Positions 25,175 through 42,556 are shown, counted from the first letter of the stretch. The stretch is DNA of 64,000 nucleotides from an uncultured Nannocystaceae bacterium (GCA_964402225.1 CAYOBQ010000018.1:9290-73289); one strand, 5' to 3'. The notes: generated by a model from the letters alone, not told the origin. A program made the numbers and translations.

Positions 25175-26002
25175 TCAGCGATCACGTCGCAGCGCGGCGA
25201 GCTCGGCGCGGAGCCGCGCGGCGTCCTGCTCGGCTACGCTCCGAGCCTGGCGCTCGGCCGCCAGCGCTTCGTCAGCGGCCACCAACGCTTCCTCCGCCGT
25301 CGGGACCAGATCGTGGCCTGCCATGTCGCGGCAGAGCCGCAGGCGTGCGACGGGCCCCTCGTGGACCACGACCAGCCCCGCATCGATTTGCTCGCTCCAC
25401 GTCGGCCCCGCCCCTCGGTAGACGCGCACGAAGGCGCCGTCGCTCTCGCGGCGGTAGAGCTGAAGCGCCACGCGCTCGTCTGACCCGCGACCACTCGCGG
25501 CCTCGGGATCGAAGATCACCAGCTCCTCGGTGCCCAGCAGCGCGTACTTGGCCGGCGCCTCCTCGTAGTCCTTCTCCCACCGTGCGCGGCGGCCCCCCTT
25601 CGCCGAGACGACCTCGACGGCGAACCGCGGAGGGCGGCGGCCGGGCTTCCAGGTCTCCCACATCTCCGGGTGTGGCGGTGGCGGTGGGTCGTCGAGCAGG
25701 TAGACATCGGGTGACACCCGCACGTTCGGCTCGTGGGGGACCCAGGCAAAGAACTGGTCACCGGCGATGTGCACGTCGGGCCACCCGAGCGTTCGCGCGA
25801 GCGCCTTGAGCGAGGACTTCAAGACGAAGATGATCTGTTCCTGCTCGCTGCTCTCGCCCCTGTCCTCCTCGTCGGTCAGATACCACGTGGACCAATCGAT
25901 GCGGGCGCCGACCTCGTGGGGGAGCGGATCGCGGACCACGCTGAGGACGCGCGGGGGGCGGCTGGGCTTCTCGTCAGTCGAGAGGGCATGAGCCGGCCGC
26001 AT
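25175..26002 (-). CDS. Uma2-family (DUF820) putative restriction-endonuclease-like protein.
   Basis: The block [43 protein letters not shown] is the family's PD-(D/E)xK-like core. An internal Met (MRPAHALS) was chosen as the start. The ORF track begins at 26059. Confidence 0.65.
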
Positions 26003-26050
26003 GGTGGCAGCGTACCATATGGGCGGGGCCCCTACCGGGCGACCATCCCG

Positions 26051-29000: not shown

Positions 29001-30397
29001 GTGACGAGGACCGCGATGGGGATGGGGTGGCCAACGACGCCGACGACTGCCCCGACGCAGCCGACGCGGGCGGCGACGGCCGGGCCTGCGATCCAGACGA
29101 CGACGGCGACGGGGTCCCCGACGAGGCCGACGGTTGCCCCTGGGCGGCGGATCTCGGGCAGAACGACGGCGACGCTGACGGGATCGGAGACGCCTGCGAC
29201 GCGGACGCGGACGGAGACGGAGACGGGGTCGACGACGGGGCCGACCTTTGTCCTGCCCTCGGCGATCCCGACCAGGGAGACGTGGATCGCGACGGGATCG
29301 GCGATGCCTGCGACGACGACGCGGACGGGGACGGCGTCCCCAACGAGGACGATGGGTGTCCTCTGGCGGCCGACGCCGCGCAGCTCGACTCGGACGGAGA
29401 CGGCGCCGGCGACGTCTGCGACGACGACGACGACGACGACGAGATCACCGACGCCAACGATGTGTGTCCCCTCGCCGACAACGCCGGGGCTGATGGCGAC
29501 GGGGATGGGACGGACGACGGCTGCGACCCCGACGACGACGGTGACGGCGTGCTCGACGGCGACGACGTCTGCCCGCTGGTGGCCGACGCGAGGCAAGCGG
29601 ATCTGGACGTGGACGGCGTCGGCGACGCGTGCGACGCCGACGATGATGGCGACGGCGTGGAGGACCCCGTGGACCGTTGTCCGCGCATCTTTGACCCGGA
29701 TCAGGCCGACCTGGACCGGGACGGGCTGGGCGACGCGTGCGATGCGGACCGCGACGGGGACGGGCGCGGCAACGAGGAGGACAACTGCCCCGACGCCGTC
29801 AACGCGGGGCAAGACGACGGCGACGAGGACGGGGTGGGCGACGCGTGCGATCCGGACCTGGTCGACAGCGACGCCGACGGGCTCGTCGACCAGATCGAGA
29901 TCGACTGTGGCCTCGACCGAAACGACGGGGACGATCTGGACCTGGATCACGACCACGACGGGATCGCCAACGGCGCCGAGTGCGAAGCGGGGACGCCGGT
30001 GCTTCCGGTGGTCTTCCTCCGCGCCTTCGATCCGGGGGAGGCGGGGCTGGTCGGCGTCGATGTCCACCTGCGGCCGACGGATCCGGCGCCAGCGCTGATC
30101 GAGCTGCGGCTGGTCCACGACGCCGAGCTCGTGGAGGTGACGCCGGGGGATGCGGCGGCGGACGCGTCCAAGGACGTCTTCGTCGGGGTCGCGGGGGCGA
30201 CGGAGCTTCGGTTGACGGCGACGAGCTTGCACACCGGGCCGGTCGGCGCCGGGGTCCTCGCGCGCCTGACGCTGCGGGCCGAAGGGCCGGTGAGGGTCCG
30301 CTTCGGCCTGGCCCAGGGGCAGGTGGCGCCGGCGGGGGCGGTCCTGACCTACGGCGTCGGTCACCCGGACGCGGCGCTGGTCGTGGGGGCGCCATGA
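26051..30397 (+). CDS. Giant secreted protein with ~35 thrombospondin type-3 (TSP3) calcium-binding repeats and an N-terminal EF-hand/dockerin-like module.
   Basis: The signal peptide is [29 protein letters not shown]. The unit DNCPxxxNPxQxDxDxDGxGDxCD recurs across about 3 kb. The N-terminal ~150 aa (FDRNRNGQF...DADGDGLLG...[12 protein letters not shown]) are paralogous to the N-terminus of the 31806 gene. The stop overlaps the next start (ATGA). Confidence 0.85.
26760..29850 (+). repeat. Coding tandem array of TSP3-type repeat units (~72-110 nt each).
   Basis: The peptide unit DNCPxxxNxDQxDxDxDGxGDxCD recurs more than 30 times at DNA level (gacaactgccc...gacggcgacggg...). Confidence 0.7.
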
Positions 30398-31809
30398 GGT
30401 TGCGCCATACGCTGCCGCTGCTGTTGTTGTGGGCCTGCGACACTCAGCCTGGGCTGGTTGATGGGGGCGCCCGGGACGGCGCCGATCTCGACTCGGCGGC
30501 GCTGGATGATCTCGGGGTCCCCGAGGACGTGGCGGTGGACACGGCCCTCGACGCCGCCGGGGACACGGGCGGCGATGTCCCGGTGGACGTCGCCGTCGCC
30601 GTGGACGCGACCGACGGGGCGACGGATGGCGCCGTCGCCGACGTCGCGCCCGACGCCGCGCCCGAGCCGACGCTCTGCGAGGTCTGCGAGGGGGACGATG
30701 ACTGCCCCTCCGGGCTTTGTCTGGAGGTCGGGCTGCGGCGCTTCTGCGGGGCGGACTGCGCCGACGACGAGGACTGCGCCGACGGCTTCGAGTGCATCGA
30801 CACCGATCTGGAGAACGACGAGGAACCCCTGCAATGTGTCCCGGCGGGGGGGCTGTGTCCGGCGTGCGCTGGCGACGACACGACCTGCGATGGCATCGAC
30901 GACGACTGCGATGGGACGGCGGACGAGGACTTCGTCGGGGTCGAATGCGCCGACTCCTGCGCGTCTGTGGGGTGCGTCGCGGGGGAGGTCACGGCGTGCC
31001 CGGATCCGTCCGTCGATGGCTGTGATGGGGTGGACGACGACTGCGACGGGACGACGGACGAGGACTACGTCGCCGGACCTGGCTGCGGGGTCGGGGCGTG
31101 TGCGCGCGGGGAGGCGTGCGTCTCCGGTGAGGCCGCATGCGAGCCGGGTGAAGCGGCGGCGGACGACGCGACCTGCGACGCCGTCGATGACGATTGTGAC
31201 GGGGCCCAGGACGAGGACTTCGTGAGCCCCGAGCGCTGCGGTCTCGGGGTGTGCGAACGCGCCGTGGCGTGCGTCGGTGGCGAGGTGGGCTGTGTGCCCG
31301 GCGAGCCGCTCGCGGCGACCGACGTGACCTGTGACGGGATCGACGACGACTGCGACGGGGCCCCCGACGACGAGTGCCAGCGCAACGTGCTGCGCTTCGA
31401 GCTCGCCGAGATGGGCGAGGGTTTCGTCGACGTGAACCTGGTCTACGCGCAGCAGCACTCGCCGCTCAACGACGGTGTCTACTGGCAACCCCGGGCCCTC
31501 GATCTGCGAGTTCTGGCGCCCGTCGGGCTGTCGCTGCGGCTGCCGAACCCCGAGGGCGTCGTGCCCGGTCCCTCGGTGGTCGCCGCGGACAAGCGGATCA
31601 ACGTCGTGCGCCGCGGCGAGCGGGAGACGCGACTCTCGATCATCTCGGCGGGCAACTCGAATCGGGTGGCCCCGGGCGTCTTGGCGACGCTGCGCTACAC
31701 CCACGACGCGGCGCCGCCCTTCGGCTTCGAGTGGGACGAGCTGCGCACGAACATGGCGCCGGTCGAGGCCCTCGAAGTGCTCGAAGTCGAAGCGGGGCTC
31801 ATCCAGTGA
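30395..31809 (+). CDS. Lipoprotein with four MopE-like 'CDGxDDDCDGxxDE' Cys-rich repeats and a C-terminal beta-rich domain.
   Basis: The N-terminus [15 protein letters not shown]|DTQ is a lipobox. Repeats include TCDGIDDDCDGTADEDF, GCDGVDDDCDGTTDEDY and TCDAVDDDCDGAQDEDF. It is coupled to both neighbours by ATGA and GTGA overlaps. Confidence 0.75.
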
Positions 31810-34304
31810 GGTGGACGTTTCTCACCCTCTTCGTCGCGTGCGCCGCCCAGGCGCGGGAGCCGCTGCGCGAGATCGGCCTCCTGCACGACCTGGTCGACGC
31901 CTATGCGCGCAGCGTCGACGTCGACGATCCGGCGGTGCTCGCCGACGCTTATCCCGGGCGGACGCTCGAGGACTTCGACCGCGACGGCGATGGGGCCTTC
32001 GGGGCGGCGACGGACGACGCCCTGGAGGACGTCGCGCTGGCGGTCCTCCAGTTCAACCACGACGATCTGGACGCGGACGCCGACGGCCTGATGGGGCAGA
32101 TGGAGCTCGACTGCGTGGTCGGCGAGACGCGCCTCGACCCGTCGTCGGCCCAGACCTTCGAGGGGGTCGACGACGCGGATCTGGACTGCGACGGCGATGG
32201 GATGGCGAACGGTGCGGAGCTCGCCCGCGGGCTGGATCCCCTCGACGGCCGCGACGCCCGGGCCTGTGCGGACGACGCCTCGGAGCCCAACGACGACGCG
32301 CCGGTGGTGGTGGCGAACGACTTCGAGGCGGACTTGACGCTCTGCCTCGACGACGTGGATCGCTTCGCCTTCGACGTGCCCGAGGGCACCGCCTCGCTGG
32401 TGGTGGCGGTGGGCTTCGACCACGCGCTGGGTGATCTGGACGCGCGACTCACGGCCCCGGGGGGGGACGTGTCGGAGAGCCGCTCCGTCGACGACGACGA
32501 GCGCTTCGAGGTCGCCGAGCCGGCGGTGGGGCGGTGGACGGTCGAGATCGTCGGCGCCCGGAACGACTACCAGCTCCGGCTGACGACCGTGCCGGTGGAG
32601 GGCTGCGTCCCCGACGCGCGGGAGCCGGGGGCGGGGGATGACACGCCGGAGCGGGCGCCCGTCGTCGAGGCGCAGGTCATCGAGGACCAGCGCGTGTGTC
32701 CCGGGGACCAGGATTGGCTGGCCCTCGATCTCGGCCTTGGCGACGGCCTGACGGTGCGACTCGAGATGCTGGGCAACCCGACGGGGGGAGACGGCGAGCT
32801 CGACCTGCTGGTGCATGGGCCCGGCCTACCCCGCGAGGGGGGTCCGCCACCCCTGCTGCCCAACAACGCAGGAGGCGAGGGGACGCCGGAGGACCCGTTC
32901 TATCTCGAGTTCCGCGCGCCGCGGGGCAACCCGACGATCTCGACGGGGCGCTACTACATTCAGACGGCTGGGATCGACGTCGTGCCGCTCCAGTGGGGGG
33001 ACTATCGGCTTCGGGTCGAGGTCGATCGGCTGCGGCGGCTCTGCCTGCCGGATCGGTTCGAGCCGAACGAGGACGCGGCGGGGGCGGCAAGTCTCGCGGT
33101 CTTGCCCGGCTTCGGTCGCGACGGGGCGGGGGGGCTCGAGTTGATCCCCGGCGTGGGTCGGCAGATCGACGACGTCGCGATCTGTGCGCGGGATGAGGAT
33201 TGGTTCGAGCTGGAGCTGGGGGCGGGCGACGATCTCGAGGTGGTGGTGACCCGGGAGGCGCCGGTCGAGGGCGACGTGCGCGTCGAGATTCGGGACGCCG
33301 AGGGCCGCGTCGTCGGCGATCGACGCCACGCGAACGCGGAGCTGGTGGCGACGGCCGAAGGGGTCGACGCCGGGCGACACACGATTCGCGTCGACGGGCT
33401 GACCAGCGTGCAGACGTTCTACTCGATGCGCGTCCGGCGGACGGCGGCGCCGGTGCCGTGCGCGCCCGACGGTGATGAACCGAACGACGAGCGCGGGGCG
33501 GCGACGCCGGTCGAGGCGGGGCCGCGCGAGGGCCGGACGCTGTGTGCCGCCGACGGGGACGTCGACTGGTACGCCTTTGACGTCGATGAGCTCTCGACGG
33601 TTCAGGTGGAGCTCGACTTCGCCCACGCGGACGGCGATCTCGAGCTCGACGTCTTCCGGGGCGACGCCCCCGAGGCCCTCAACGCGCAGGTGCGCGATGG
33701 CCACACACGCAGCGACGGCGAGAGCGTCCGCCTCGTGAACCAGCCGTCGGGGCGCTATTTCGTCCGGGTGACAGGTTTCTCGCCGGACGGCGTCGGTGCC
33801 GGCAACGCGCCCTATTCGTTGTCGATCGAGGTGACGCCGCGGGTCTTCGCCTGCGCCGACGACCCGGACGAGCCCAACGACGTGCTCGAGACGGCGACTC
33901 TGCTCGGCTTCGAGCCCTTGGTGCGTGACACCCAGTGGTTGTGCCAGCGGATCCCGCCGGAGAGCGACTACTTCCAGATCGACATCCCGCCGAACACGCC
34001 GCGGGTCGTGGGCGCCGACTTCGTGCTCTTCGACGACGGCGACCTCTTCCTCCAGGTCTACGATCTCGACGGGATGTTGCGCGCCTCCACGGCGTTGTTG
34101 ACGCGGAACCAGTCGAAGCAATGCGTCGTGTTCCCGGCGACGGCGGATCCGCGGTCCTACGTCCTGAGGGTGGCGCCCTTCGCGATCAACGCGGTGATCG
34201 ATGACGACGAGCGGCTCGACTACACGCTGCACGTCCTCGATGGGGAGGATTGCGAGGCGTTCGGCCACCCCAGCCCGGGGATTCATTGGCCGCGTATCCG
34301 CTGA
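31806..34304 (+). CDS. Lipoprotein with five tandem pre-peptidase C-terminal (PPC) domains and an N-terminal EF-hand/dockerin-like module.
   Basis: A GTG start gives VRWTFLTLFVAC|AAQA (lipobox). Five units of the form EPND(D/E)...A..L......(DxDWY/F)(A/E)F......v.v....DLDL......YxLRV are present. The N-terminus (FDRDGDGAF...DADADGLMG...DCDGDGMANGAE) is homologous to the N-terminus of the 26051 gene. Confidence 0.8.
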   Translation: MRWTFLTLFVACAAQAREPLREIGLLHDLVDAYARSVDVDDPAVLADAYPGRTLEDFDRDGDGAFGAATDDALEDVALAVLQFNHDDLDADADGLMGQMELDCVVGETRLDPSSAQTFEGVDDADLDCDGDGMANGAELARGLDPLDGRDARACADDASEPNDDAPVVVANDFEADLTLCLDDVDRFAFDVPEGTASLVVAVGFDHALGDLDARLTAPGGDVSESRSVDDDERFEVAEPAVGRWTVEIVGARNDYQLRLTTVPVEGCVPDAREPGAGDDTPERAPVVEAQVIEDQRVCPGDQDWLALDLGLGDGLTVRLEMLGNPTGGDGELDLLVHGPGLPREGGPPPLLPNNAGGEGTPEDPFYLEFRAPRGNPTISTGRYYIQTAGIDVVPLQWGDYRLRVEVDRLRRLCLPDRFEPNEDAAGAASLAVLPGFGRDGAGGLELIPGVGRQIDDVAICARDEDWFELELGAGDDLEVVVTREAPVEGDVRVEIRDAEGRVVGDRRHANAELVATAEGVDAGRHTIRVDGLTSVQTFYSMRVRRTAAPVPCAPDGDEPNDERGAATPVEAGPREGRTLCAADGDVDWYAFDVDELSTVQVELDFAHADGDLELDVFRGDAPEALNAQVRDGHTRSDGESVRLVNQPSGRYFVRVTGFSPDGVGAGNAPYSLSIEVTPRVFACADDPDEPNDVLETATLLGFEPLVRDTQWLCQRIPPESDYFQIDIPPNTPRVVGADFVLFDDGDLFLQVYDLDGMLRASTALLTRNQSKQCVVFPATADPRSYVLRVAPFAINAVIDDDERLDYTLHVLDGEDCEAFGHPSPGIHWPRIR

Positions 34305-34318
34305 ATAGGGACGGCGAG

Positions 34319-34596
34319 ATGTCGATTGGAAAGCGCGCGACAGCGGAGGTCTTCGGGACCTCTTGGCTCGTCTTCGAAGGGTGTGGGAGCGCGGTGCTGG
34401 CGGCCGCCTCACGCTCTTCCACCTGGTCGGGATTCCGGTGACGAACCTCTCCGTGAACCCCGCCCGGAGCACGGGGCCGGCCCTCTTCGTCGGCGGCGGG
34501 GCGCTCAGCCAGCTCTGGCTGTTCTGGGTCGCGCCGATTATTGGCGCCGCGCTGGCCGGTGTGGTGTATCCGATGGTCGCCGGCAAGGACGAATAG
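34319..34596 (+). pseudogene. aqpZ: Aquaporin Z relic. The first ~30 codons are joined, out of frame, to the last ~65 codons. An internal deletion of about 135 codons is inferred.
   Basis: The 5' part (frame of ORF 34250..34441) reads [30 protein letters not shown]. coli AqpZ starts [27 protein letters not shown]. The 3' part (ORF 34363..34596, other frame) reads [62 protein letters not shown], which matches the AqpZ C-terminus (...[45 protein letters not shown]...). The junction is near 34400-34410. Confidence 0.7.
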
Positions 34597-34607
34597 ACAG
34601 GAGCTCC

Positions 34608-36464
34608 ATGAAGCGCGCGATCCTCGCACTCTCGCTGTTGCCCGCCATGGCGATGGCGTTACCCGATGTGCAGTCCGTTGATGACCGGGTCGACGACGCC
34701 ACCCTCACGCTGCGAGTCCTCGACCGGCTCGTGCAGGGTGACTCGCGGAGCTTCTGTGAGGTTCGCATCTTCGACCGCGCCAGCGACGAGTCCCTCACGG
34801 CGGGGGACACCATCCTCATCTGGGTCTACGAGGACGACGCGCTCGGCGATGACCTGCTCTGGGAGACGGAGTTCAACGTGAGCGCCCAGGAGGCGCAGCA
34901 GCAGCGGCTCGACCGGACGTTGGACTGCTCGTCGGCCTTCGGCGACGGGGATGGCATCGGCGACAACCTGGAGATCTACGCCGAGGCCCGTGTCGAGAAG
35001 AGCGAGTGTGGCTTTGGCTGTGCCTACGACCGGCCGGAGACCGCGGCGCTCGATGTGGCCTTTGTCGGTGACGACGGGGCGGAGGACGACGACGGTCAGG
35101 GCAGCGCCGTCCGCATCCCGATCGGGCCCACCGGCGGGCGCGTCGCGCGAGACGCCGATTGGTTCGAGGTGGTGCTCGACGAGCGAGCGATCATCGACTT
35201 CCAGGCGGCGCACCGTGCTCATGTGGGGCGACTCGACGTGGCGATCTTCGCCCCCGGCGGGGCGCTCATCGCCAATGGCGGTGACGGTGACGACGTCGCG
35301 AGCCTGGTCTCACAGCCGTTGCTCCCGGGCACCTACGGCCTCCGCGTCACGCACCGCGATGGGGACGACTTCAACTTCTACGACGTCCGCCTGCGCGTCG
35401 AGCTGCGCCCCTTCACGTGTCAGCCCGGGGTCGTCGAGGAGGCGGGCTGTGGAAGCTGCGGCGCCCGTCGGCGGACCTGCGGTCAAGACGGTGAGTGGGC
35501 GGCCTTCGGCCCGTGTGGGGGTGAGGGGGTCTGCGCGCCGGGGGCCATGCGGGAAGACGCCTGCGGGCTGTGCGGCCAGCGCACCGACGCGTGCAACGGT
35601 GCCTGCGAGTGGGTGGACGGCGTCTGTCAGGACGAGGGCCCGTGCAACCCCGGATCGAGCGAGCAGGAGGTCTGCCCCGAGGGCGGCACCCGACGACGGG
35701 AGTGCGACCAGGCGTGCCAGTGGGGGGCGTTCGCGGAGTGCGTGGAGTGCGACGACGGCGCCACCCGCGCTTGCTACGACGGCGCCCCGGGCACGGAGGG
35801 GGTCGGGGCGTGCATCGCCGGGCTCGAGACCTGCATCCGTGGTGAGTGGAGCGACTGCGATGGGATGATCGGGCCGGCCTCCGAGGCGTGCGGCGACGCG
35901 GCGGACGACGACTGCGATGGCCTCGCCGACGACGAGGATCCCGACTGCCTGGCGGACCGGGGAGGCGCCTGCGAAGCCGACGGCGAGTGTCTGGCGACGC
36001 GGTGCCTGGACGGTGTCTTCCCCGCTGGCTACTGCGCCGACGAGGGTTGTGGCGCGTGCGACGATGGCGTTTGCGTGGCGCCGTTTGGGGCCGACCTCTG
36101 CCTCGCCGGGTGCGCCGCCGACCTCGACTGCCGTCCCGGCTACCTGTGCCTCGACGGCGCGTGCACCCCGCCCTGCCGTGACGATGGCGACTGCGGGGGC
36201 GTGGAGCGCCCGCTGTGCGGGGACGGGCGTTGCGTTCCCGAGGGGGGTGAGGGTGAAGGTGAAGGTGAGGGCGAGGTGCTGGACCAGGGGGTCACGCCGC
36301 CGATCGGACAATCGGACGCAGGCACCGCCGCCGACTCGGGTTCGGCGACCGCCGAGCCCGTCTCGGATTGCAACTGCCGCGCAGGCGAGTCGGCGTCGAG
36401 GCCCTGGTGGATGATGATGGTGTTGCTGGTGGGTTTGCGCCGCCGCGGTCGCGGCGGCCGCTAG
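34608..36464 (+). CDS. Secreted protein with a PPC-like domain, a large Cys-rich (disulfide-repeat) region and a canonical MYXO-CTERM sorting signal.
   Basis: AGGAG lies 7 nt before the ATG. The signal is MKRAILALSLLPAMAMA. The C-terminus reads ...[33 protein letters not shown], a Cys motif followed by a hydrophobic helix, an Arg cluster and a stop. The architecture is TraA-like (variable domain, Cys-rich repeats, MYXO-CTERM). Confidence 0.8.
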   Translation: MKRAILALSLLPAMAMALPDVQSVDDRVDDATLTLRVLDRLVQGDSRSFCEVRIFDRASDESLTAGDTILIWVYEDDALGDDLLWETEFNVSAQEAQQQRLDRTLDCSSAFGDGDGIGDNLEIYAEARVEKSECGFGCAYDRPETAALDVAFVGDDGAEDDDGQGSAVRIPIGPTGGRVARDADWFEVVLDERAIIDFQAAHRAHVGRLDVAIFAPGGALIANGGDGDDVASLVSQPLLPGTYGLRVTHRDGDDFNFYDVRLRVELRPFTCQPGVVEEAGCGSCGARRRTCGQDGEWAAFGPCGGEGVCAPGAMREDACGLCGQRTDACNGACEWVDGVCQDEGPCNPGSSEQEVCPEGGTRRRECDQACQWGAFAECVECDDGATRACYDGAPGTEGVGACIAGLETCIRGEWSDCDGMIGPASEACGDAADDDCDGLADDEDPDCLADRGGACEADGECLATRCLDGVFPAGYCADEGCGACDDGVCVAPFGADLCLAGCAADLDCRPGYLCLDGACTPPCRDDGDCGGVERPLCGDGRCVPEGGEGEGEGEGEVLDQGVTPPIGQSDAGTAADSGSATAEPVSDCNCRAGESASRPWWMMMVLLVGLRRRGRGGR

Positions 36465-36466
36465 GA

Positions 36467-36676
36467 TCAGTTGCTCTCGACGAGCTCTCGGAGGTCGGGG
36501 AACTGCTCGAAGAGCGCCTCGACCGCCTGGTCGATGTCCTTGAGCACCTGCTCACGGTTGTTGCACAGGCGGTCGATTTGTTCTGCCGAGAGCGTCGGCG
36601 GGCCGCCGGGGAAAGCGCCCGTGAAGTTCGGGTCGACCGAGTAATCCAGCTTTGCCGCCTCGTCTGCCCAGCTCAT
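36467..36676 (-). CDS. Small acidic hypothetical protein, 69 aa. It is the last gene of the KAP-NTPase module.
   Basis: The sequence MSWADEAAKLDYSVDPNFTGAFPGGPPTLSAEQIDRLCNNREQVLKDIDQAVEALFEQFPDLRELVESN is complex, has GC-rich third positions, and has GCAGGAG 8 nt upstream of the ATG. Confidence 0.5.
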   Translation of the reverse strand: MSWADEAAKLDYSVDPNFTGAFPGGPPTLSAEQIDRLCNNREQVLKDIDQAVEALFEQFPDLRELVESN

Positions 36677-36721
36677 CTCGTACTCCTGCTCACAAAGAAC
36701 GCACTATTACTCACCGTACTG

Positions 36722-36752
36722 GACCGGTCCGAACCGGTCAAGGACCGGTCCC
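36722..36752 (-). terminator. Two copies of the self-complementary decamer GGACCGGTCC, 11 nt apart, at the stop codon of the KAP NTPase gene. Possible stem-loop, attenuator or protein-binding site.
   Basis: The sequence is tGGACCGGTCCgaaccggtcaaGGACCGGTCCc. The copies can pair as a 10-bp GC-rich stem with an 11-nt loop. It is followed, in the minus sense, by a lower-GC stretch (gtacggtgagtaatagtgcgttctttgt) and no clean U-tract. Confidence 0.3.
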
Positions 36753-38651
36753 GTCGGGCTGGGGGAGGACGGCGCATCGCACCGTGTGGATGACTCTCAC
36801 GGCCTTGCCCGTGGCCTCCTCGTACATCGCGGGGCGAGGCCGGATGGGCTCCCCCGCTTCGTGGAACGCGGTCCACATCAGCCACGCGGGGACATCGTCT
36901 ACAGGGCGGCTGAACAGCCAGTCCGCATCGAACCAGCGGTCGCGGACGTCCCCCTGCTCGGGTGGCGCGTTCACGAAGCCGTAGCCGCGGGCCTGGCTGG
37001 CCAGATCCACGATGCCCAACGCGTTGACGAACACGTCCCTACTATCCTTGTCGACGAGCTTGAGCAATGTCCGGCGTAGATCCGGGGCGTTGGCGGATAT
37101 CGCCCGGGGAATCCCGTGGCGGGCGTGGGCGCGCTCGTACCGACGCCACGCCCGCTGCCCACGCTCGCGCTGCCGGTCGACGGCGCTGCGTGCATAGAAC
37201 TGACACAACTCGAAGAGGCGCATGCACTCCCCCAGCTCTCTGCCCGCGGGCTGCCGGTCGATGAGCGCCGAGAGCTTGGGGTGTCGCCAGTCCCCACCCC
37301 AGGGCGGCGTCGCGAGGAGGAGCAGCGCCTCCGGCTCACGTTCCACAGTGGCGATGAGTTCATCTGTGGCGTGTCGGTCCTCGACCAGACAGAAGACGTC
37401 AAGCAGGAGCCGGAAGACGAGCACCGATTGATTCGCGTCGAGCTCGGTCCGGCGCTCTTCGACTGCGAGCCGCATCCAGATCCAGCGCAGGGCCCGTTTG
37501 ACGCAGCGGGGCGTCTTCAGCCCCCGCTGTAGCAGGAGCTGGCTTGGCGATGGTCGCTGCCCCGCCCGCGTCAACCCGCCCGCCGGCAGGTCGAGGCTGG
37601 TCCACCACTCCGCTACGAGCGCTCGCGCATGGTTGATCTCGAACGGTGGCATTGGGAACCGGACGTCAACCAGCTTCGTGAGGTAGTCCTCGCCGCCCTC
37701 ACCGTCGCTCGCGCGGGGGGCAACGGCGTGCAGCTTGCGGAGGGCCGTCGCGTCGAGGTTGAGGAGCAGCACCGTCTGCTCCAGCGCGTGGAGGTGCCCC
37801 AGCGCGTCGAGGATCGACGGGAGCTGCGCCTCCGCCAGTCGCGTGAGGTCGTCGATGACGATGAGCAGCCGCCAACGCTCGGAACGTGTGCCCAGCATCG
37901 GGATCAGCTCGTTGACGCGCTCCACGAACGCCCGGGTGTCGATGCCCTGGGTGGCGATGACGCCGTCGTCGCCCACCAGGAGCGATGCCAGGTCGCTCGC
38001 GGCCCGCACCGCTCCCTTCGCGTTGGCGGTGCCCGCCGCGACTGCCCCTCGGACAGTGGCGGAGCCGGCCGTGAGCAGATCTGTGGTGCTCCTGCGCCGT
38101 CGCGTCACCTTCCAGCGGGTGTCGCAGAACAGCGCCAGGCTCGGATGCCATTCCTTGTTGCCAACCCCCTCGGCGAGGCGCCACGCGACCTCGGTCCACG
38201 GCAACCGCTTGTCGAGCAAGACCTGCGTGTCGACCCTGATCCTCCCGTCGCCATCGGGGTGTGGGACATCCAGCGCGGGATCCGACGCGCCGCGCGCGAG
38301 CACGCGTTTGTGGAGCCGGCGATAGATGGCCTCGCCGATTCGGTAGGCGAGGGCCTCCCAGGGGGTGAAGCCCCGGGGCGTCGAGTACCGCGCGCTGAAG
38401 CGCACCTCCAGCGGCCGGTGCTCGAGGTCGGTGGGGGTCGCCAAGCGGTCCAAGGCGGCATGGGCGAGGCTCGTCTTACCGCTTCCCCAGGGTCCCTCGA
38501 CGGAGACCGAGACCCGGTTTCGGCCCCCCTCCGTCCAGCACAGACCGATGAGCTCGACCAGCGTCTCGACCCGGTCCGGCCAGAGCTCAGGGCCGCCCGT
38601 CGTCCGCGGCGACTCCTCGAGCCAGGTCGGGAGGGGGACTCGGTCGCTCAC
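36738..38651 (-). CDS. KAP-family P-loop NTPase (637 aa).
   Basis: A GTG start overlaps the upstream stop (GTGA). Walker A is VSVEGPWGSGKTSLAHA (GxWGxGKT/S). Walker B is RLLIVIDDLTRL. Local GC is lower than the surroundings. The ORF-track entry 36738..39533 carries a 294-aa spurious Arg-rich extension. Confidence 0.8.
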   Translation of the reverse strand: MSDRVPLPTWLEESPRTTGGPELWPDRVETLVELIGLCWTEGGRNRVSVSVEGPWGSGKTSLAHAALDRLATPTDLEHRPLEVRFSARYSTPRGFTPWEALAYRIGEAIYRRLHKRVLARGASDPALDVPHPDGDGRIRVDTQVLLDKRLPWTEVAWRLAEGVGNKEWHPSLALFCDTRWKVTRRRRSTTDLLTAGSATVRGAVAAGTANAKGAVRAASDLASLLVGDDGVIATQGIDTRAFVERVNELIPMLGTRSERWRLLIVIDDLTRLAEAQLPSILDALGHLHALEQTVLLLNLDATALRKLHAVAPRASDGEGGEDYLTKLVDVRFPMPPFEINHARALVAEWWTSLDLPAGGLTRAGQRPSPSQLLLQRGLKTPRCVKRALRWIWMRLAVEERRTELDANQSVLVFRLLLDVFCLVEDRHATDELIATVEREPEALLLLATPPWGGDWRHPKLSALIDRQPAGRELGECMRLFELCQFYARSAVDRQRERGQRAWRRYERAHARHGIPRAISANAPDLRRTLLKLVDKDSRDVFVNALGIVDLASQARGYGFVNAPPEQGDVRDRWFDADWLFSRPVDDVPAWLMWTAFHEAGEPIRPRPAMYEEATGKAVRVIHTVRCAVLPQPDGTGP

Positions 38652-41600
38652 GCCTCCGGCTCCGTCGGGGCGAGCCAGGTTGGCGGCCACTGAGATCGGT
38701 CCTCGTACTCGAGCCCCTCGATCTTGGCCCCGAACGTGCGGTCCTCCGGTTCCGTCCAGCACAGGAGCCCGTGGAGCCTCCGCGATCCGGCGTGAATCGT
38801 GATCTCCGGTCGCGTCGCCCCTGCCGACTGTTCGACGGGTGGCAATCGCGGGTGCCCTTCGGCGAGCCGTCCGCCCAGCCCTCCGTCTGGGGTGATGTCG
38901 ACCGCGAAGGCCGCAGCGCAGGTCCCATCGATCTCGAGGTCGAAGCTGCACTCCACGCCTCGGAACCGTGGGTAGGCCCGCTCGCGCGAGAGGTAGCGCA
39001 GGACGCGCCCGGCCCGTATCCGAAGGGCCACGTCGGCGAGGACTCGCAGCGTCGAGACCCGGAGGGACAGCCACGTCTCGCGGTGTGTCTCCCCGATCAC
39101 GAAGACCCCGCCGAGGTGGTTTGTGTAGGCGCCGGGCTCGAGCGTCGGGATCGTGTTCTCGGGGCCTCGTCTGACGCCGATGGGCCCGGTGCTCGGGAGC
39201 AACTCGCCGAAGCGGTCGGTGATATGCGAGAGGACCTTGCGAATCCAGAGATAGGCGTGCTGGCTCGGCCGCGCAGACGCCGCCAGCTCCCGCAACCTCT
39301 CCGGCTCGGCGTCCGGTTCGAGCTCTCGACCTGCGAGCACCGACCACGGCGCGGCCGGCTCCATGCCCGCGCTGAGGTGAGGGTCGAGGGTGTCGTAGTC
39401 TGTGCTCTTGCTGGCGAGCAGCTTTTCCTCCGCCTCGAGATCCGAGACGAGGGTGTCGAGCTTCTTGAAGAGGCCGTCGCACCGGTCGTTGAAGTCCGCG
39501 AGCGCGTCGCTCTTGGAGCCCACCCACCTGCACAGCGGAGACAGGTAGTGGCCCTCCAGGAGGGCGCGAAGCTGTGCCTGGTCATCGCCCACCTCGTGTT
39601 CGCAATAGCGCCAGACCCGTTCCAGCATCTCGTCGAACACGCCCTGTCCGAGCCGTCGCCCGACGAGGGCGACGATGCGGGGGCCAAACGGCGGGTTGTC
39701 CAGGTCGTGTAGCTGGCGCTGGATGAGCAGGTGCAACGTGGTCTCGGCCCATACCAGCGCCCGGTCGGCCGCCGAGACGATGCCCTCTGCCCGTCGCAGC
39801 CCCATCGCCTGACCCAACAGGAACTGCAGCTCGAATCGTCGCCACGATGTCGCCCCGGCGCGTCGCCACACCGCGTGGGCGAAGATGTCCTCCAAGAACA
39901 GCGCGCGCTGCCGGTCGAGCCACGCGTGGCGATGGTCGGCCGCACCGAAAGCGCCGATCTCCCGTGCGCACGCGTCGAAAGACGCACGGGTATCGCGGTG
40001 CGCGTCCGGACTCAGCCAGCATCGCAGCAGCCAGTGACCATGCTCGTGGAACAGCACCGTCAGCGTCAGCGGGTTCATCGCCTGAAGTTGAGAGAGACGC
40101 AGCACGGGGATCCGCCCGAGCCCCCGCGTCTCAATGGCCGCGTCGGCGCTGAAGAACGCCGTCATCGCGGCGCTCTTGGGCCGTGGGACGCCCTCCGCCC
40201 GGCGCCGCGTGGCCCAGGTGCGCTCGTCGAGGGCGAAGATCGCTGACGCCACGTTGGTCACCACGCCGATGAGTTGGTTGGTCCCCACCGGCACCTCGCC
40301 GCTCAGCGGCGGAACGCCCCCCATCAGCGGGGAGAACTGAACTCGCTGCTCGAGGGCGTGTTGTCCGTACTCGGTGACCTCCCCGACGAGGGTCGGCAGC
40401 TCGGGTGCGGCGTATCCCTTGGTGTCGGGATAGAAGACGACGCGTCGAACGACCGCCGCGAGATCAGCGAGGTCGACCACCGAGCCGAACATGTCGGGGA
40501 GCGACAGGGTGTCTGCGAGCGCGTTGAGCCAGCCGCGCAGCGCCAGCGCTTCGATGCGCCCGATGCTGCGGGCGCTGAGTCGATCGCGTTCGAAGCGCGC
40601 CTGGCTCGGCGCCTGGTTGTGGCTCAGCGTCGAGTAGCCGTAGCGCCGACCGCGGGGCCCTGCCTTCCGTTGCTCGAGTCCAGTCGTCGGCGTGCGCCCG
40701 AGCAGCGAGGTCACGTCCAGGACATGTCGCGCGTGCTCGAGGTGGGCCCGGGACCAACATGCGAGGGCGACAAGGACCACGAATCCGCGTCGGCCGTCCG
40801 GCACCTCGCAGCGCAACGCGATCGTCGTTCCCAGGGGTCCAGAGGCGTCGCTCACGTCCGCGCGCGTGTCCCCGTGGGCCTCCATCAGTCGATCGGCGAA
40901 CAACTGAACGACATCGCGCACCTCATCGGCGTGTCCCGGCTTGGGGAGCCACTGAATCAACGCACGGACGCGGTCCGAGCCTTCCTCCGCGTGGGAGAAG
41001 GCCTCCTCGACGCGTCCGCCCAGGTCATCGATGAAGGCGGCGCGGTCGTGGTCCTCGGCGTCGTCGTCGTGGGTCGGGTTGCACACCGCCCGGCACACCT
41101 CGGTCGTGGCGCGATGCGCCTCGCCGTCGCCCAGCCACCCGAGCAAGCCGGCGGCGTGCAGCCCCGTGTAGGCGCGTGCCGCGACGACGACGTGGGAGAC
41201 CCCGAGGAGCTGGTCGAGCGCGTCCGCCGTGAATCCCGTCGGGTTGGCGAGCCCGCCTGTTTGGAGCCGGCGGTCGGCGATCCACCGACGGATGATGCCC
41301 CGCGGTACGTAGAGCGGTGAGTCGTCCCCCGACGACCGAAGCGCCTCGCGCAGCCTGCCGTAGACCTCCGGGAGGTGGTGCACCTGAATCGACTCGATGT
41401 CGGCCGCTACGCTCGCGACGGCGTGGGCGGTCGGTCCGCTGATAACCACGACCAACTCCGGCCAGGAGTAGGCGTCGAGCACCACGCAGTGGCAGCCCCG
41501 CACCCGGGCGCGCTCGTAGACCATCGCGGCGGTCGCGGTCTCCAGGGCGTGTCCGCTCGCCGTGGCGATCGCATCTGTGAGCTTGATACAGACGACGCCG

Positions 41601-41971
41601 AGGACCGCGCGATCCGGGTCGGGCTCGTCGGTGAGCAGCGCCCCGATGTCCGCATCGTAGTCCGGCCCCGGAGGTGGCAGGACGGCGCCGTAGAGCATTT
41701 CCTGGGCCGTCGCTCCGCCAGCGCTCGCCATGTAGACGACGGACTCGAGGTCATCGGCGAGATAGAAGGTGGCGCTGTCGTAGATCCCGAACATCAGCGC
41801 GCGCCGCGGGTCGTAGTAGCGGGGATCGAGCGGCTCGGTGCTGATGCGCTCCAGATCCTGGCGATAGAGTCTGACGCTCTCGTTGAAGGCCCACGAGGTG
41901 CCGTTGTCGCGGTCTGGCTGCACGCGATGAAGCGCGACCACGAGGATGGGATGAGCTGGCTGGTGATTCAT
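38648..41971 (-). CDS. Large protein of unknown function (1107 aa). It is the first gene of the KAP NTPase module and contains an HEHGH (HExxH) motif.
   Basis: It is an uninterrupted complex-sequence ORF with no signal peptide and no Walker motif. The motif LFHEHGHWLLRC fits HExxH. Its stop overlaps the KAP start. Confidence 0.75.
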   Translation of the reverse strand: MNHQPAHPILVVALHRVQPDRDNGTSWAFNESVRLYRQDLERISTEPLDPRYYDPRRALMFGIYDSATFYLADDLESVVYMASAGGATAQEMLYGAVLPPPGPDYDADIGALLTDEPDPDRAVLGVVCIKLTDAIATASGHALETATAAMVYERARVRGCHCVVLDAYSWPELVVVISGPTAHAVASVAADIESIQVHHLPEVYGRLREALRSSGDDSPLYVPRGIIRRWIADRRLQTGGLANPTGFTADALDQLLGVSHVVVAARAYTGLHAAGLLGWLGDGEAHRATTEVCRAVCNPTHDDDAEDHDRAAFIDDLGGRVEEAFSHAEEGSDRVRALIQWLPKPGHADEVRDVVQLFADRLMEAHGDTRADVSDASGPLGTTIALRCEVPDGRRGFVVLVALACWSRAHLEHARHVLDVTSLLGRTPTTGLEQRKAGPRGRRYGYSTLSHNQAPSQARFERDRLSARSIGRIEALALRGWLNALADTLSLPDMFGSVVDLADLAAVVRRVVFYPDTKGYAAPELPTLVGEVTEYGQHALEQRVQFSPLMGGVPPLSGEVPVGTNQLIGVVTNVASAIFALDERTWATRRRAEGVPRPKSAAMTAFFSADAAIETRGLGRIPVLRLSQLQAMNPLTLTVLFHEHGHWLLRCWLSPDAHRDTRASFDACAREIGAFGAADHRHAWLDRQRALFLEDIFAHAVWRRAGATSWRRFELQFLLGQAMGLRRAEGIVSAADRALVWAETTLHLLIQRQLHDLDNPPFGPRIVALVGRRLGQGVFDEMLERVWRYCEHEVGDDQAQLRALLEGHYLSPLCRWVGSKSDALADFNDRCDGLFKKLDTLVSDLEAEEKLLASKSTDYDTLDPHLSAGMEPAAPWSVLAGRELEPDAEPERLRELAASARPSQHAYLWIRKVLSHITDRFGELLPSTGPIGVRRGPENTIPTLEPGAYTNHLGGVFVIGETHRETWLSLRVSTLRVLADVALRIRAGRVLRYLSRERAYPRFRGVECSFDLEIDGTCAAAFAVDITPDGGLGGRLAEGHPRLPPVEQSAGATRPEITIHAGSRRLHGLLCWTEPEDRTFGAKIEGLEYEDRSQWPPTWLAPTEPEA

Positions 41972-41975
41972 GGTT

Positions 41976-41998
41976 GCCCGTGAGTGAACCTCACGGGC
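41976..41998 (-). promoter_or_regulatory. Perfect 8-bp inverted repeat (GCCCGTGA n7 TCACGGGC), 5-27 nt upstream of the start codon of the 1107-aa gene.
   Basis: The plus-strand sequence is gcccgtgagtgaacctcacgggc. It lies between the stop of the upstream lipoprotein gene (42023) and the ATG at 41971. No U-tract is present. It could be a leader hairpin or an operator. Confidence 0.25.
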
Positions 41999-42022: not shown

Positions 42023-42556
42023 TCACGGGTAGCTGGAGTTGCCCACCGTGACGGTGTCGTAGGGCACGTCGTCGATGCCGAAGCGGCACTGTTTGCCCGA
42101 GGCGCAGAAACAGTCGGTCTTCTCGTAGTTCGGGCTGCAGAAGCCGTCGTGGCCGCTATCTTCCGTGCACTCGACCGGCATGCACGCGACGATCCACTTG
42201 AGGTTGCCGATGACGATGCGCCCGCCCACCTGGGCCAGCGGGATCGTGTCCGTCCGGTTCTCGCCCGTGGCGGCGGTGCCGAAGCGCAGGAGGTTGAGTC
42301 CGTCTTCGAGGCGAGCGACGGCGAAGCGCTCGATCTCGCCTCCATCGGGGAAGCTCCGGGAGAGCCGGTTCCGGTGGAGGACGATCCGTCCGTTCTCGGC
42401 GATGTGCGCCACCGCGACGCGCCGTCCGGCGCCGTCGGCCTTGGACACCTCGGCGGAGAGCTCGTTGGGATCGATGTGGGTGATCTCCGGCTCGGCGACG
42501 TCCGCGCTGCAGGCGGCGAAGGAGAGGGAGAGGAGCAGAATCGAGAGGTGTCGCAT
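42023..42556 (-). CDS. Small lipoprotein (177 aa) with a Cys-containing C-terminal region.
   Basis: The N-terminus MRHLSILLLSLSFAAC|SAD is a lipobox. The composition is complex. Confidence 0.6.
   Translation of the reverse strand: MRHLSILLLSLSFAACSADVAEPEITHIDPNELSAEVSKADGAGRRVAVAHIAENGRIVLHRNRLSRSFPDGGEIERFAVARLEDGLNLLRFGTAATGENRTDTIPLAQVGGRIVIGNLKWIVACMPVECTEDSGHDGFCSPNYEKTDCFCASGKQCRFGIDDVPYDTVTVGNSSYP

What the first reader, a model, noticed from the sequence alone, without database searches (positions are those of the whole stretch)
36467..41998. Translationally coupled module: 1107-aa unknown protein, KAP P-loop NTPase and 69-aa protein. Candidate uncharacterised defence or conflict system.
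Three minus-strand genes form a tight unit. The stop of the 1107-aa gene overlaps the GTG start of the KAP NTPase (GTGA). The 69-aa gene, with its own SD, follows 61 nt later.

The KAP family is named partly for PifA, the F-plasmid T7-exclusion (abortive infection) protein. KAP NTPases recur in defence islands, yet most partner proteins are uncharacterised.

The 1107-aa partner has no signal peptide, no P-loop and no domain I can recognise apart from an HEHGH (HExxH-like) motif.

The module's DNA is visibly less GC-rich than its flanks. It has many aaa, aat, tat, cta and ctt codons, and sequences such as ctactatccttgtcgacgagcttgagcaatgtcc. This is consistent with horizontal acquisition.

Structured elements bracket it: an 8-bp inverted repeat in the leader and a GGACCGGTCC pair at the KAP stop.
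Basis: partly seen in the sequence, partly recalled or inferred. Interest (0 to 1): 0.72.

Follow-up and report, generated by a model that had tools for sequence, protein, structure and literature searches.

The report
Rare PilZ–HExxH protein, KAP NTPase cassette
The three genes are a real, conserved but very rare cassette: a large new protein with a protease-like zinc motif and a c-di-GMP receptor domain, a KAP ATPase and a ~70-residue protein; it is probably an undescribed conflict or defence system, but no function has been tested.

Summary
Three minus-strand genes form a tight unit: 1107 aa (38648-41971), a KAP NTPase (36738-38651, GTGA overlap) and 69 aa (36467-36676).

The unit is a conserved cassette. 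Homologues of the large protein sit directly upstream of a KAP NTPase, overlapping or within 4 nt, in 9 of 11 independent loci. A homologue of the small protein (motif DPNFxGAFxGGPPLLS) is clear in 7 of them and doubtful in 2 more.

The large-protein family is very rare: about 28-30 clusters among 1.84 billion representative proteins, with no Pfam, NCBIfam or PADLOC model.

A confident AlphaFold model (pLDDT 82, pTM 0.88) and a 28-member alignment split the large protein into three parts:
- N-terminal ferredoxin-like domains, the first two packed as a chlorite-dismutase/DyP-type barrel;
- a large helical domain with no solved relative, carrying an HExxH motif invariant in 28/28 members;
- a C-terminal PilZ domain with intact c-di-GMP motifs.

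Flanks differ in every locus. The cassette is GC-poorer than its surroundings, and one copy sits beside an IS91 transposase and an integrase.

My best reading (confidence 0.4) is a mobile KAP-NTPase conflict system with a c-di-GMP-gated metalloprotease-like effector. Defence is inferred, not shown. I saw no defence-island context where neighbours could be checked, and no copies in the phage or plasmid collections searched.

The parts
38648..41971 (-). Large protein, 1107 aa. Founding member of an undescribed family of about 1100-1280-aa cytoplasmic proteins.
   Evidence: ORF, translation. No Pfam, PADLOC or NCBIfam hit. 28 hits with E<1e-30 among 1.84 billion representatives. AlphaFold model has pLDDT 81.7 and pTM 0.88.
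40682..41971 (-). Residues 1-430: N-terminal ferredoxin-like (beta-alpha-beta-beta-alpha-beta) domains, about three by my reading of the secondary structure. The first two resemble a chlorite-dismutase / DyP / ABM-type alpha+beta barrel. Conserved G62, D65, D73-D74, E91, K130, D133 and KPGH 344-347.
38987..40654 (-). Residues 440-995: large, mostly helical central domain with no close solved relative. It contains the zincin-like core (about residues 601-760), which is the most conserved segment of the family.
40034..40048 (-). HEHGH, the HExxH motif (H642, E643, H646). It lies on a helix that directly follows a three-stranded sheet.
   Evidence: Invariant in 28/28 members, including the most distant one, P0039. 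Topology. Coordinates checked.
39872..39892 (-). EDIFAHA (residues 694-700), on the second helix after the HExxH helix. D695 is nearly invariant and is a candidate third metal ligand.
   Evidence: The ligand role is inference only.
38687..38986 (-). Residues 996-1095: PilZ domain with R998-x-x-x-R1002 and D1025-I-T-P-D-G1030, matching the RxxxR and D/NxSxxG c-di-GMP-binding motifs.
36738..38651 (-). KAP-family P-loop NTPase, 637 aa (650 aa if it starts at the GTG at 38690). Translationally coupled to the large gene. Probably soluble.
   Evidence: Pfam KAP_NTPase 1.6e-13. GTGA overlap. No 19-residue segment has Kyte-Doolittle hydrophobicity above 1.75 in 7 orthologues. Alignment A5.
38469..38495 (-). 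Walker A motif GPWGSGKTS of the KAP NTPase. The Walker B motif LLIVIDD lies at 37848-37868.
   Evidence: W55, G56, G58, K59 and S61 are invariant in 7 orthologues. Walker B is an acidic pair in 6 of 7 (DD in five, ED in L008; EN in L009). Coordinates.
36467..36676 (-). Small protein, 69 aa. It has the conserved motif Y-x-x-DPNFxGAFxGGPP(L/T)LS (36584-36643) followed by a variable charged tail that I take to be helical (not modelled).
   Evidence: Homologues lie downstream of the KAP gene in L003, L004, L005, L008 and L013, and directly after the large gene in L001. Possible inverted copies in L014 and, more weakly, L009. No Pfam or PDB relative.
41976..41998 (-). Leader hairpin GCCCGUGAG-GUUCA-CUCACGGGC, ending 4 nt before the ATG of the large gene. 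No Shine-Dalgarno sequence is visible there. It could terminate the upstream lipoprotein gene or mask translation initiation.
   Evidence: (z = -2.7; 2 of 200 shuffles fold as well). Its function was not tested.
36721..36751 (-). Two copies of the palindrome GGACCGGTCC flanking the KAP stop codon. They can form a 10-bp stem.
   Evidence: The region does not fold better than shuffles (z = -1.0), so this may be chance in 70% GC DNA.

Best explanation
**What it is.** A horizontally mobile three-gene cassette encoding a KAP-NTPase-based conflict system, most likely anti-phage or another form of regulated self-harm.

**Shown.**
- The large protein, the KAP NTPase and the small protein are inherited together across distant bacteria.
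- The large gene and the KAP gene are translationally coupled almost everywhere.
- The large protein carries an invariant HExxH motif in a zincin-like sheet-helix-helix setting.
- It also carries a PilZ domain with intact c-di-GMP-binding motifs.
- The KAP protein keeps its Walker A motif, and usually its Walker B motif.

**Inferred mechanism.**
1. The KAP NTPase and the large protein form a complex. The NTPase acts as the NTP-driven sensor or switch, as proposed for other KAP defence proteins.
2. The large protein is the effector. It is a zinc metallopeptidase held inactive until triggered.
3. c-di-GMP bound to the PilZ domain sets or gates its activity. This ties the response to the cell's physiological state.
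4. The N-terminal ferredoxin-like barrel may bind a further ligand.
5. The small protein's conserved motif, flexible as judged from its Gly/Pro-rich sequence, docks on the large protein as a pseudo-substrate inhibitor, an antitoxin-like lid, or the first substrate.
6. Activation leads to cleavage of host or invader proteins and to growth arrest.
For: **Cassette conservation.**
- L003: all three proteins are homologous, at 29%, 31% and 47% identity.
- L004, from a Phycisphaerales genome.
- L005, L006/7, L008, L009/10, L013 and L014/15.
- The junction between the large gene and the KAP gene is an overlap or a gap of at most 4 nt in all nine loci.

**Small protein travels with the large one.** L001 has the large and small genes but no KAP gene.

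**Motifs and domains.**
- HExxH is invariant in 28/28 members, and the core around it is the most conserved segment.
- The PilZ domain rests on fold, family-level Pfam hits and motifs.
- The KAP domain is confirmed and its Walker motifs are conserved.

**Mobility.**
- Flanks differ in every locus.
- GC is lower than the surroundings in the window (69.1 vs 72.1%), in L003 (67-69 vs 71-81%) and in L004 (54 vs 65%).
- In L004 an IS91 transposase and a tyrosine integrase lie next to the cassette.

**Published precedent for KAP NTPases in defence.**
- KAP proteins fused to unknown domains protect Enterococcus from phage, and this depends on the Walker B motif (PMC13552941).
- QatA of qatABCD is a KAP NTPase that broadens that system's phage range (PMC13279940).
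Against: - There is no experimental evidence of any kind.
- No known defence genes flank the cassette in the window. None is evident in the precomputed Pfam labels of the other loci.
- No PADLOC model matches the large or small protein.
- No copy turned up in 50,697 phage or 72,556 plasmid records (tblastn), or in a two-motif pattern scan of IMG/VR viral contigs.
- A sister group of about 900-aa proteins has a mostly degenerate HExxH, so the scaffold can exist without it.
- PilZ domains normally serve housekeeping c-di-GMP signalling.
- Only 11 loci were inspected, many of them on short metagenomic contigs.
Confidence: 0.4

Rival explanations
1. A c-di-GMP-controlled regulatory proteolysis or signalling module with no role in immunity. 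c-di-GMP binds the PilZ domain and switches the large protein's protease or scaffold activity. The KAP NTPase remodels or loads a client. The small protein is the regulated substrate or an adaptor. The output would be a lifestyle decision such as motility, development or matrix production.
For: - PilZ with intact RxxxR and DxSxxG motifs is the only recognisable signalling domain.
- The hosts look like organisms with complex lifestyles. This is my inference from the thrombospondin type-3 repeat, pre-peptidase C-terminal (PPC) and MopE-motif secreted proteins beside the cassette and the Phycisphaerales locus.
- The flanks are ordinary metabolic, envelope and signalling genes.
- A STAS-PilZ protein lies at the edge of the L004 island.
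Against: - The family is extremely rare and patchy (about 30 clusters in 1.84 billion representatives). There is no conserved neighbourhood beyond the three genes.
- GC is below the flanks, and a transposase and integrase sit alongside in L004.
- A core regulatory pathway would be expected to be lineage-conserved and syntenic.
Confidence: 0.3
2. The large protein is not a protease. Its HExxH site binds a metal for another hydrolytic or purely structural purpose, or it is a sensor or scaffold. The real effector would then be the KAP NTPase with its roughly 290-residue C-terminal region of unknown fold, as in single-chain KAP defence proteins.
For: - No peptidase family or fold match of any strength.
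- The sister group lacks HExxH.
- The published Enterococcus KAP proteins need their own uncharacterised C-terminal region (PMC13552941).
- The N-terminal chlorite-dismutase/DyP-like barrel and the PilZ domain both look like ligand sensors.
Against: - HExxH, plus a near-invariant acidic residue two helices later, is the best-conserved feature of a 1100-aa protein.
- It sits in the sheet-then-helix arrangement typical of zincins.
- L001 and L012 keep the large protein but replace or lose the KAP gene.
Confidence: 0.17
3. A peptide-maturation (RiPP-like) cassette. The small protein is a precursor whose conserved N-terminal motif acts as a leader recognised by the large protein. The large protein cleaves it to release the variable C-terminal part.
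For: - The small protein has a conserved N-terminal motif and a variable C-terminal part.
- It always accompanies an HExxH protein.
Against: - The variable part is a charged tail with no Cys/Ser/Thr-rich core.
- No modifying enzyme, transporter or immunity gene travels with the cassette.
- A KAP NTPase has no known role in such pathways (my knowledge).
- None of the three proteins has a signal peptide or a strong membrane segment.
Confidence: 0.06

Closest known systems
Single-chain KAP P-loop NTPase anti-phage proteins (Enterococcus EF_KAP and metagenomic relatives; PLoS Biol 2026, PMC13552941) and PifA of the F plasmid
   Same: - A KAP-family P-loop NTPase with intact Walker motifs, coupled to sequence of unknown function.
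- A mobile, patchy distribution.
- In the published cases the NTPase motif and the attached unknown region are both needed for defence.
   Different: - Here the unknown partner is a separate 1107-aa protein plus a 69-aa protein, not a fused C-terminal region.
- These KAP proteins show no strong membrane helices, whereas EF_KAP is modelled with two.
- The PADLOC PifA model matches only the P-loop stretch, residues 49-75.
qatABCD (QatA = KAP NTPase, QatB, QatC = QueC-like, QatD = TatD nuclease)
   Same: A multi-gene operon in which a KAP NTPase accompanies other proteins and appears to modulate rather than execute the response (PMC13279940).
   Different: - The cassette has no QueC-like or TatD-like gene.
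- The NCBIfam QatA model scores 12.9 bits against a cut-off of 600. The PADLOC QatA model gives E = 5.7e-4 over 84 residues only.
- The partner proteins are unrelated.
PilZ-domain c-di-GMP receptors fused to enzymes (BcsA cellulose synthase, Alg44, YcgR, PlzA)
   Different: - The attached module is a new HExxH helical domain plus ferredoxin-like domains, not a glycosyltransferase or a flagellar brake.
- The gene is coupled to a KAP NTPase.
- No paper in the searched library mentions KAP NTPase and PilZ together.
M48-type zincins / minigluzincins (HtpX, BepA)
   Different: - No sequence-family match.
- No membrane anchor.
- The core is embedded in a helical domain of about 550 residues with no solved relative.
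- The identity of the third ligand is unknown.

Membership tests
KAP family P-loop NTPase (Pfam PF07693) | Match to the family profile above the curated threshold | tested here: met
   51 bits against a cut-off of 20, E = 1.6e-13. The five complete downstream partner proteins scanned directly (L003, L004, L006, L008, L009) also match.
KAP family P-loop NTPase (Pfam PF07693) | Walker A (GxxGxGK[ST]) and Walker B (hhhhDD) motifs | tested here: met
   GPWGSGKTS at residues 53-61 and LLIVIDD at 262-268. Walker A is invariant in 7 orthologues. Walker B is an acidic pair in 6 of 7.
KAP family P-loop NTPase (Pfam PF07693) | Transmembrane helices inserted in the NTPase domain. This is typical of many members as I recall the original description of the family; it is not universal. 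| tested here: not met
   The maximum 19-residue Kyte-Doolittle hydrophobicity is 1.0-1.7 in 7 orthologues. This subfamily looks soluble.
PifA (F-plasmid T7 exclusion) | Full-length similarity to PifA and a single-gene architecture | tested here: not met
   The PADLOC PifA model gives 32.6 bits, with the best stretch limited to residues 49-75, the P-loop. Here the NTPase is one part of a three-gene unit.
qatABCD | A QatA equivalog plus QatB, QatC (QueC-like) and QatD (TatD) partners | tested here: not met
   NCBIfam QatA scores 12.9 bits against a cut-off of 600. No QueC or TatD domain in the cassette proteins or in the window's nearest neighbours scanned.
PilZ domain (PF07238) | Profile match | tested here: inconclusive
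   - The window protein gives no hit, even with its C-terminus alone.
- Orthologues do: 5 of 28 at E <= 0.01, best 1.1e-8. The L005 orthologue is listed in precomputed Pfam data.
- P0002 and L003 are sub-threshold, at 0.021 and 0.006.
PilZ domain (PF07238) | PilZ beta-barrel fold | tested here: met
PilZ domain (PF07238) | The c-di-GMP-binding motifs RxxxR and (D/N)x(S/T)xxG | tested here: met
   R998-AYP-R1002 is at least 90% conserved in the family. D1025-ITPD-G1030 matches the family consensus DxSPxGxG. Actual binding was not tested.
Zincin metallopeptidases (HExxH) | An HExxH motif on a helix that follows a beta-sheet | tested here: met
   H642, E643 and H646 are invariant in 28/28 members. 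Strands 604-626 are followed by helix 634-652.
Zincin metallopeptidases (HExxH) | A third metal ligand (Glu, Asp or His) on a downstream element | tested here: inconclusive
   D695 is nearly invariant on helix 682-707, but E694 varies.
Zincin metallopeptidases (HExxH) | Sequence or fold match to a known peptidase family | tested here: not met
Known anti-phage defence systems (PADLOC-DB 2.0) | A model match for the system's proteins | tested here: not met
   The large and small proteins give no hits at E <= 1. The KAP protein gives only weak PifA and QatA matches.
Defence-island residency | Known defence genes or mobile-element genes close by | tested here: inconclusive
   - Window flanks are nitronate monooxygenase, CoA-transferase, enoyl-CoA hydratase, an MFS transporter and secreted proteins with thrombospondin type-3 repeat or pre-peptidase C-terminal domains.
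- L004 has an IS91 transposase and an integrase.
- L013 has a weak Nuc_deoxyrib_tr neighbour.
- The other flanks are ordinary genes.

The most novel reading that the evidence does not exclude
The cassette is a new type of immune system in which the housekeeping second messenger c-di-GMP, read by a PilZ domain, licenses a KAP-NTPase-controlled metalloprotease of a previously unseen zincin fold. A dedicated ~70-aa protein (motif GAFxGGPP) would act as its built-in inhibitor or bait. To my knowledge, and in the library searched, PilZ/c-di-GMP sensing has not been linked to a KAP-type defence system. It would also give a first mechanistic partner set for soluble KAP NTPases.
Probability: 0.25. Interest if true: 0.8.

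Novelty: new variant of a known kind. Interest (0 to 1): 0.62.

Why it matters
KAP NTPases have only recently been shown to act in phage defence, and how they work is unknown. This cassette offers a natural three-part version in which the NTPase, a candidate effector and a candidate regulator are separate proteins. That makes the division of labour testable.

The large protein also defines a new family with two features of wider interest:
- a PilZ domain attached to an HExxH module, so possibly a new output class for c-di-GMP signalling;
- a helical domain of about 550 residues that no solved structure resembles.

Because the family is very rare (about 30 clusters in 1.84 billion representatives), its general importance is limited unless the mechanism proves instructive for KAP systems as a whole.

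Tried and rejected
1. **Fourth gene.** The upstream 177-aa ORF (42023-42556) was considered. I rejected it: it has a lipoprotein signal (LSFAAC) and is absent from every other locus.
2. **Word-indexed protein search with the 28-member profile.** It returned only the two proteins already known, so one capped search was wasted. The exhaustive HMMER search was what revealed the family.
3. **Co-folding.** I tried to fold the large protein fused to the small one through a linker, to test docking of the GAFxGGPP motif.
4. **Pfam on isolated HExxH cores.** Scanning cores of ten members at E <= 10 gave nothing meaningful.
5. **Profile searches against PDB sequences.**
   - The large-protein profile found only weak PilZ hits.
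   - The small-protein profile found nothing.
   - The KAP profile found only generic P-loop matches.
6. **Foldseek against PDB.** The full model gave no hit below E = 0.048.
7. **Mobile-element collections.**
   - Phage and plasmid tblastn searches found no copy.
   - An IMG/VR scan with two conserved peptide patterns also found none.
   - The 28-member alignment was too divergent for the pattern-based locus finder.
   - The metagenome scan re-found only L005.
9. **The eLife 2020 survey of NTP-dependent conflict systems.** It does not discuss KAP or PilZ.
10. **Source organism.** It could not be named. The look-up returned only metagenome scaffold names.

Full report
**1. The observation**

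The window is about 72% GC.
- Codon-position GC marks them as real genes in those frames: GC3 is 0.86-0.87 and GC2 0.39-0.51.
- The TGA of the large gene overlaps a GTG (GTGA), with GGAG 9 nt upstream.
- Public gene callers prefer a GTG 13 codons further up, giving 650 aa. In both cases the two genes overlap.
- The small gene follows 61 nt after the KAP stop and has AGGAG 6 nt before its ATG.
- The cassette is 69.1% GC against 72.1% for the window. That is the lowest 1% of 5.5-kb stretches, so the drop is real but modest.
- The leader hairpin (41976-41998, 9-bp stem, 4 nt before the ATG) folds better than shuffled sequence (z = -2.7). The GGACCGGTCC pair at the KAP stop does not (z = -1.0).
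- A further minus-strand ORF 51 nt upstream (42023-42556) encodes a lipoprotein and is not conserved with the cassette.

**2. What the three proteins are**

*Middle gene.* It is a KAP-family P-loop NTPase (Pfam PF07693, 51 bits against a cut-off of 20).
- Walker A (GPWGSGKTS) is invariant and Walker B (LLIVIDD) is largely conserved among seven orthologues.
- No strongly hydrophobic segment is present, so it is probably soluble.
- It is not PifA or QatA. The PADLOC PifA model matches only the P-loop stretch. The NCBIfam QatA model scores 12.9 bits against a cut-off of 600.

*Large protein.* It matches nothing in Pfam, NCBIfam or PADLOC.
- An exhaustive HMMER search of 1.84 billion representative proteins found 43 hits. 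Of these, 28 have E < 1e-30, and nearly all of those are 1000-1280 aa long.
- In a 28-member alignment only 11 columns are invariant. Four of them are H642, E643, G645 and H646 of the HExxH motif.
- An AlphaFold2 model built on that alignment is confident: pLDDT 81.7, pTM 0.88.
- Further evidence for PilZ:
  - Pfam PilZ is the only family hit by any member (5 of 28, best 1.1e-8).
  - Precomputed Pfam data list PilZ for the L005 orthologue.
  - The family profile weakly finds Alg44, BcsA and YcgR among PDB sequences.
  - Both c-di-GMP-binding motifs are present: R998-xxx-R1002, and D1025-ITPD-G1030, with family consensus DxSPxGxG.
  - The window protein itself is too divergent for the Pfam model.
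- The central region (residues 440-1000) was modelled separately, with pLDDT 85 and pTM 0.90.
  - The local layout still matches what I know of zincins: three strands (604-626), then the HExxH helix (634-652), then helices carrying a near-invariant acidic residue (D695).
  - This core is the most conserved stretch of the protein.
  - I therefore call it a putative metallopeptidase of a new fold variant, with moderate confidence.

*Small protein.* It has no database relative. Its orthologues share the motif Y-x-x-DPNFxGAFxGGPPLLS, followed by a variable charged tail.

**3. The cassette is conserved**

Eleven independent loci carrying a family member were examined.

| Locus | Large to KAP junction | Small protein |
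|---|---|---|
| Window | GTGA overlap | 61 nt after the KAP stop |
| L003 | 19-nt overlap | 47% identical |
| L004 (Phycisphaerales genome) | 11-nt overlap | present |
| L005 | 2-nt gap | present |
| L006/7 | 4-nt overlap | contig ends |
| L008 | 28-nt overlap | present |
| L009/10 | 4-nt overlap | only a doubtful match (ATGGHMGGAPR) on the opposite strand |
| L013 | 4-nt overlap | present but uncalled, HMM E = 2e-11 |
| L014/15 | 4-nt gap | inverted 92-aa gene with EFVGAFIGGGP, E = 0.005 |

There are two exceptions.
- L001 has the large and small genes but no KAP gene. A partial SMC/AAA_21-type ATPase lies upstream.
- L012 carries the most distant family member, followed by a 732-aa protein with a Rossmann-type dinucleotide-binding region.

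So the large and small proteins form the core, and an NTPase, nearly always KAP, is the usual third partner.

**4. Context and mobility**

- Beyond the three genes, no neighbour is shared between loci.
- In the window the flanks are a lipoprotein, nitronate monooxygenase, CoA-transferase, enoyl-CoA hydratase and an MFS transporter on one side. On the other are large secreted proteins with thrombospondin type-3 repeat, pre-peptidase C-terminal (PPC) or MopE-motif matches.
- The cassette is GC-poorer than its flanks in the window, in L003 (67-69% vs 71-81%) and most clearly in L004. There a 10-kb island of 54% GC in a 65% GC genome also holds an IS91-type transposase and a tyrosine integrase.
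- tblastn found no copy in the phage or plasmid collections, and a two-motif pattern scan found none in the IMG/VR viral contigs.
- This pattern fits a horizontally moving accessory module. It is not the signature of a classical defence island.

**5. How it most likely works**

Shown:
- co-inheritance of the three genes and translational coupling of the first two;
- an invariant HExxH motif;
- a PilZ fold with intact binding motifs;
- an NTPase whose catalytic motifs are intact in most orthologues (Walker B reads EN in L009).

Inferred:
- The KAP NTPase and the large protein form a complex in which NTP binding or hydrolysis acts as the switch.
- The large protein is the effector protease.
- c-di-GMP bound to PilZ gates or tunes it.
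- The N-terminal barrel may sense another ligand.
- The small protein's conserved motif occupies the protease as inhibitor, bait or first substrate.

Given what is published on KAP proteins in phage defence (PMC13552941; PMC13279940), I favour a conflict or defence role (0.4) over a purely regulatory c-di-GMP module (0.3). The remaining rivals are a non-protease reading in which the KAP protein is the effector (0.17) and a peptide-maturation cassette (0.06).

**6. Comparison with known systems**

It works most like the recently described KAP-NTPase defence proteins, but it is not a member of PifA, QatABCD or any PADLOC 2.0 system. The fusion of PilZ to an HExxH module, and its pairing with a KAP NTPase, is not mentioned in any paper of the searched library.

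A sister group of about 900-aa proteins shares the scaffold but lacks PilZ, and most of them have lost HExxH.

**7. Verdict**

It is a conserved, very rare, apparently mobile three-gene cassette with a new large protein family. The function is unproven. I rate it a new variant of a known kind (NTPase-coupled conflict systems), interest 0.62.

Noticed in passing
window 25733-30397 (+): A 1554-aa protein made largely of thrombospondin type-3 repeats (25 matched stretches, E = 6.5e-170). It coincides with a strong AT skew (+0.29 to +0.32) at 27-30 kb.
   Followed up: no
window 30400-36464 (+): Three further large plus-strand genes converge on the cassette. One has a weak MopE-like metal-binding motif. 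One has two pre-peptidase C-terminal (PPC) domains and a bacterial thrombospondin type-3 repeat. One, of about 700 aa, has no Pfam match. Together with the 72% GC this suggests a myxobacterium-like host, but the organism was not identified.
   Followed up: partly
window 42023-42556 (-): A 177-aa predicted lipoprotein (MRHLSILLLSLSFAAC...) with no Pfam match lies 51 nt upstream of the cassette. The leader hairpin may be its terminator.
   Followed up: partly
L004 5942-9803: In the Phycisphaerales locus, the low-GC island that holds the cassette also carries a STAS protein with a weak PilZ match (E = 0.034), an IS91/Y2 transposase and a tyrosine integrase.
   Followed up: partly
P0042-P0050 (e.g. 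L011 1861-4578): A sister group of about 890-950-aa proteins aligns with the large protein along most of its length but lacks the PilZ domain. In most of them the HExxH position is degenerate (HEAA.., KEAAN.); P0049 keeps HELGH and P0044 HEMLH. No Pfam hits. The one locus seen is too short to show partners.
   Followed up: partly
L001 3-785 and L012 4590-6788: Where the KAP gene is missing, another nucleotide-binding protein is adjacent. L001 has the C-terminal part of an SMC_N/AAA_21-type ATPase upstream. L012 has a 732-aa protein with an FAD/NAD(P) Rossmann region downstream. This may be partner swapping.
   Followed up: partly
window 40682-41971 (-), residues 1-430 of the large protein: Strongly conserved polar residues in the ferredoxin-like domains (G62, D65, D73-D74, E91, K130, D133, KPGH 344-347, R408) suggest a second ligand-binding or catalytic site apart from HExxH. 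The matching folds include heme-binding families.
   Followed up: no
L013 1628-2284: A 218-aa gene with a weak nucleoside 2-deoxyribosyltransferase-like Pfam mark lies just upstream of the cassette in this locus. To my knowledge this domain type occurs in some conflict systems.
   Followed up: no
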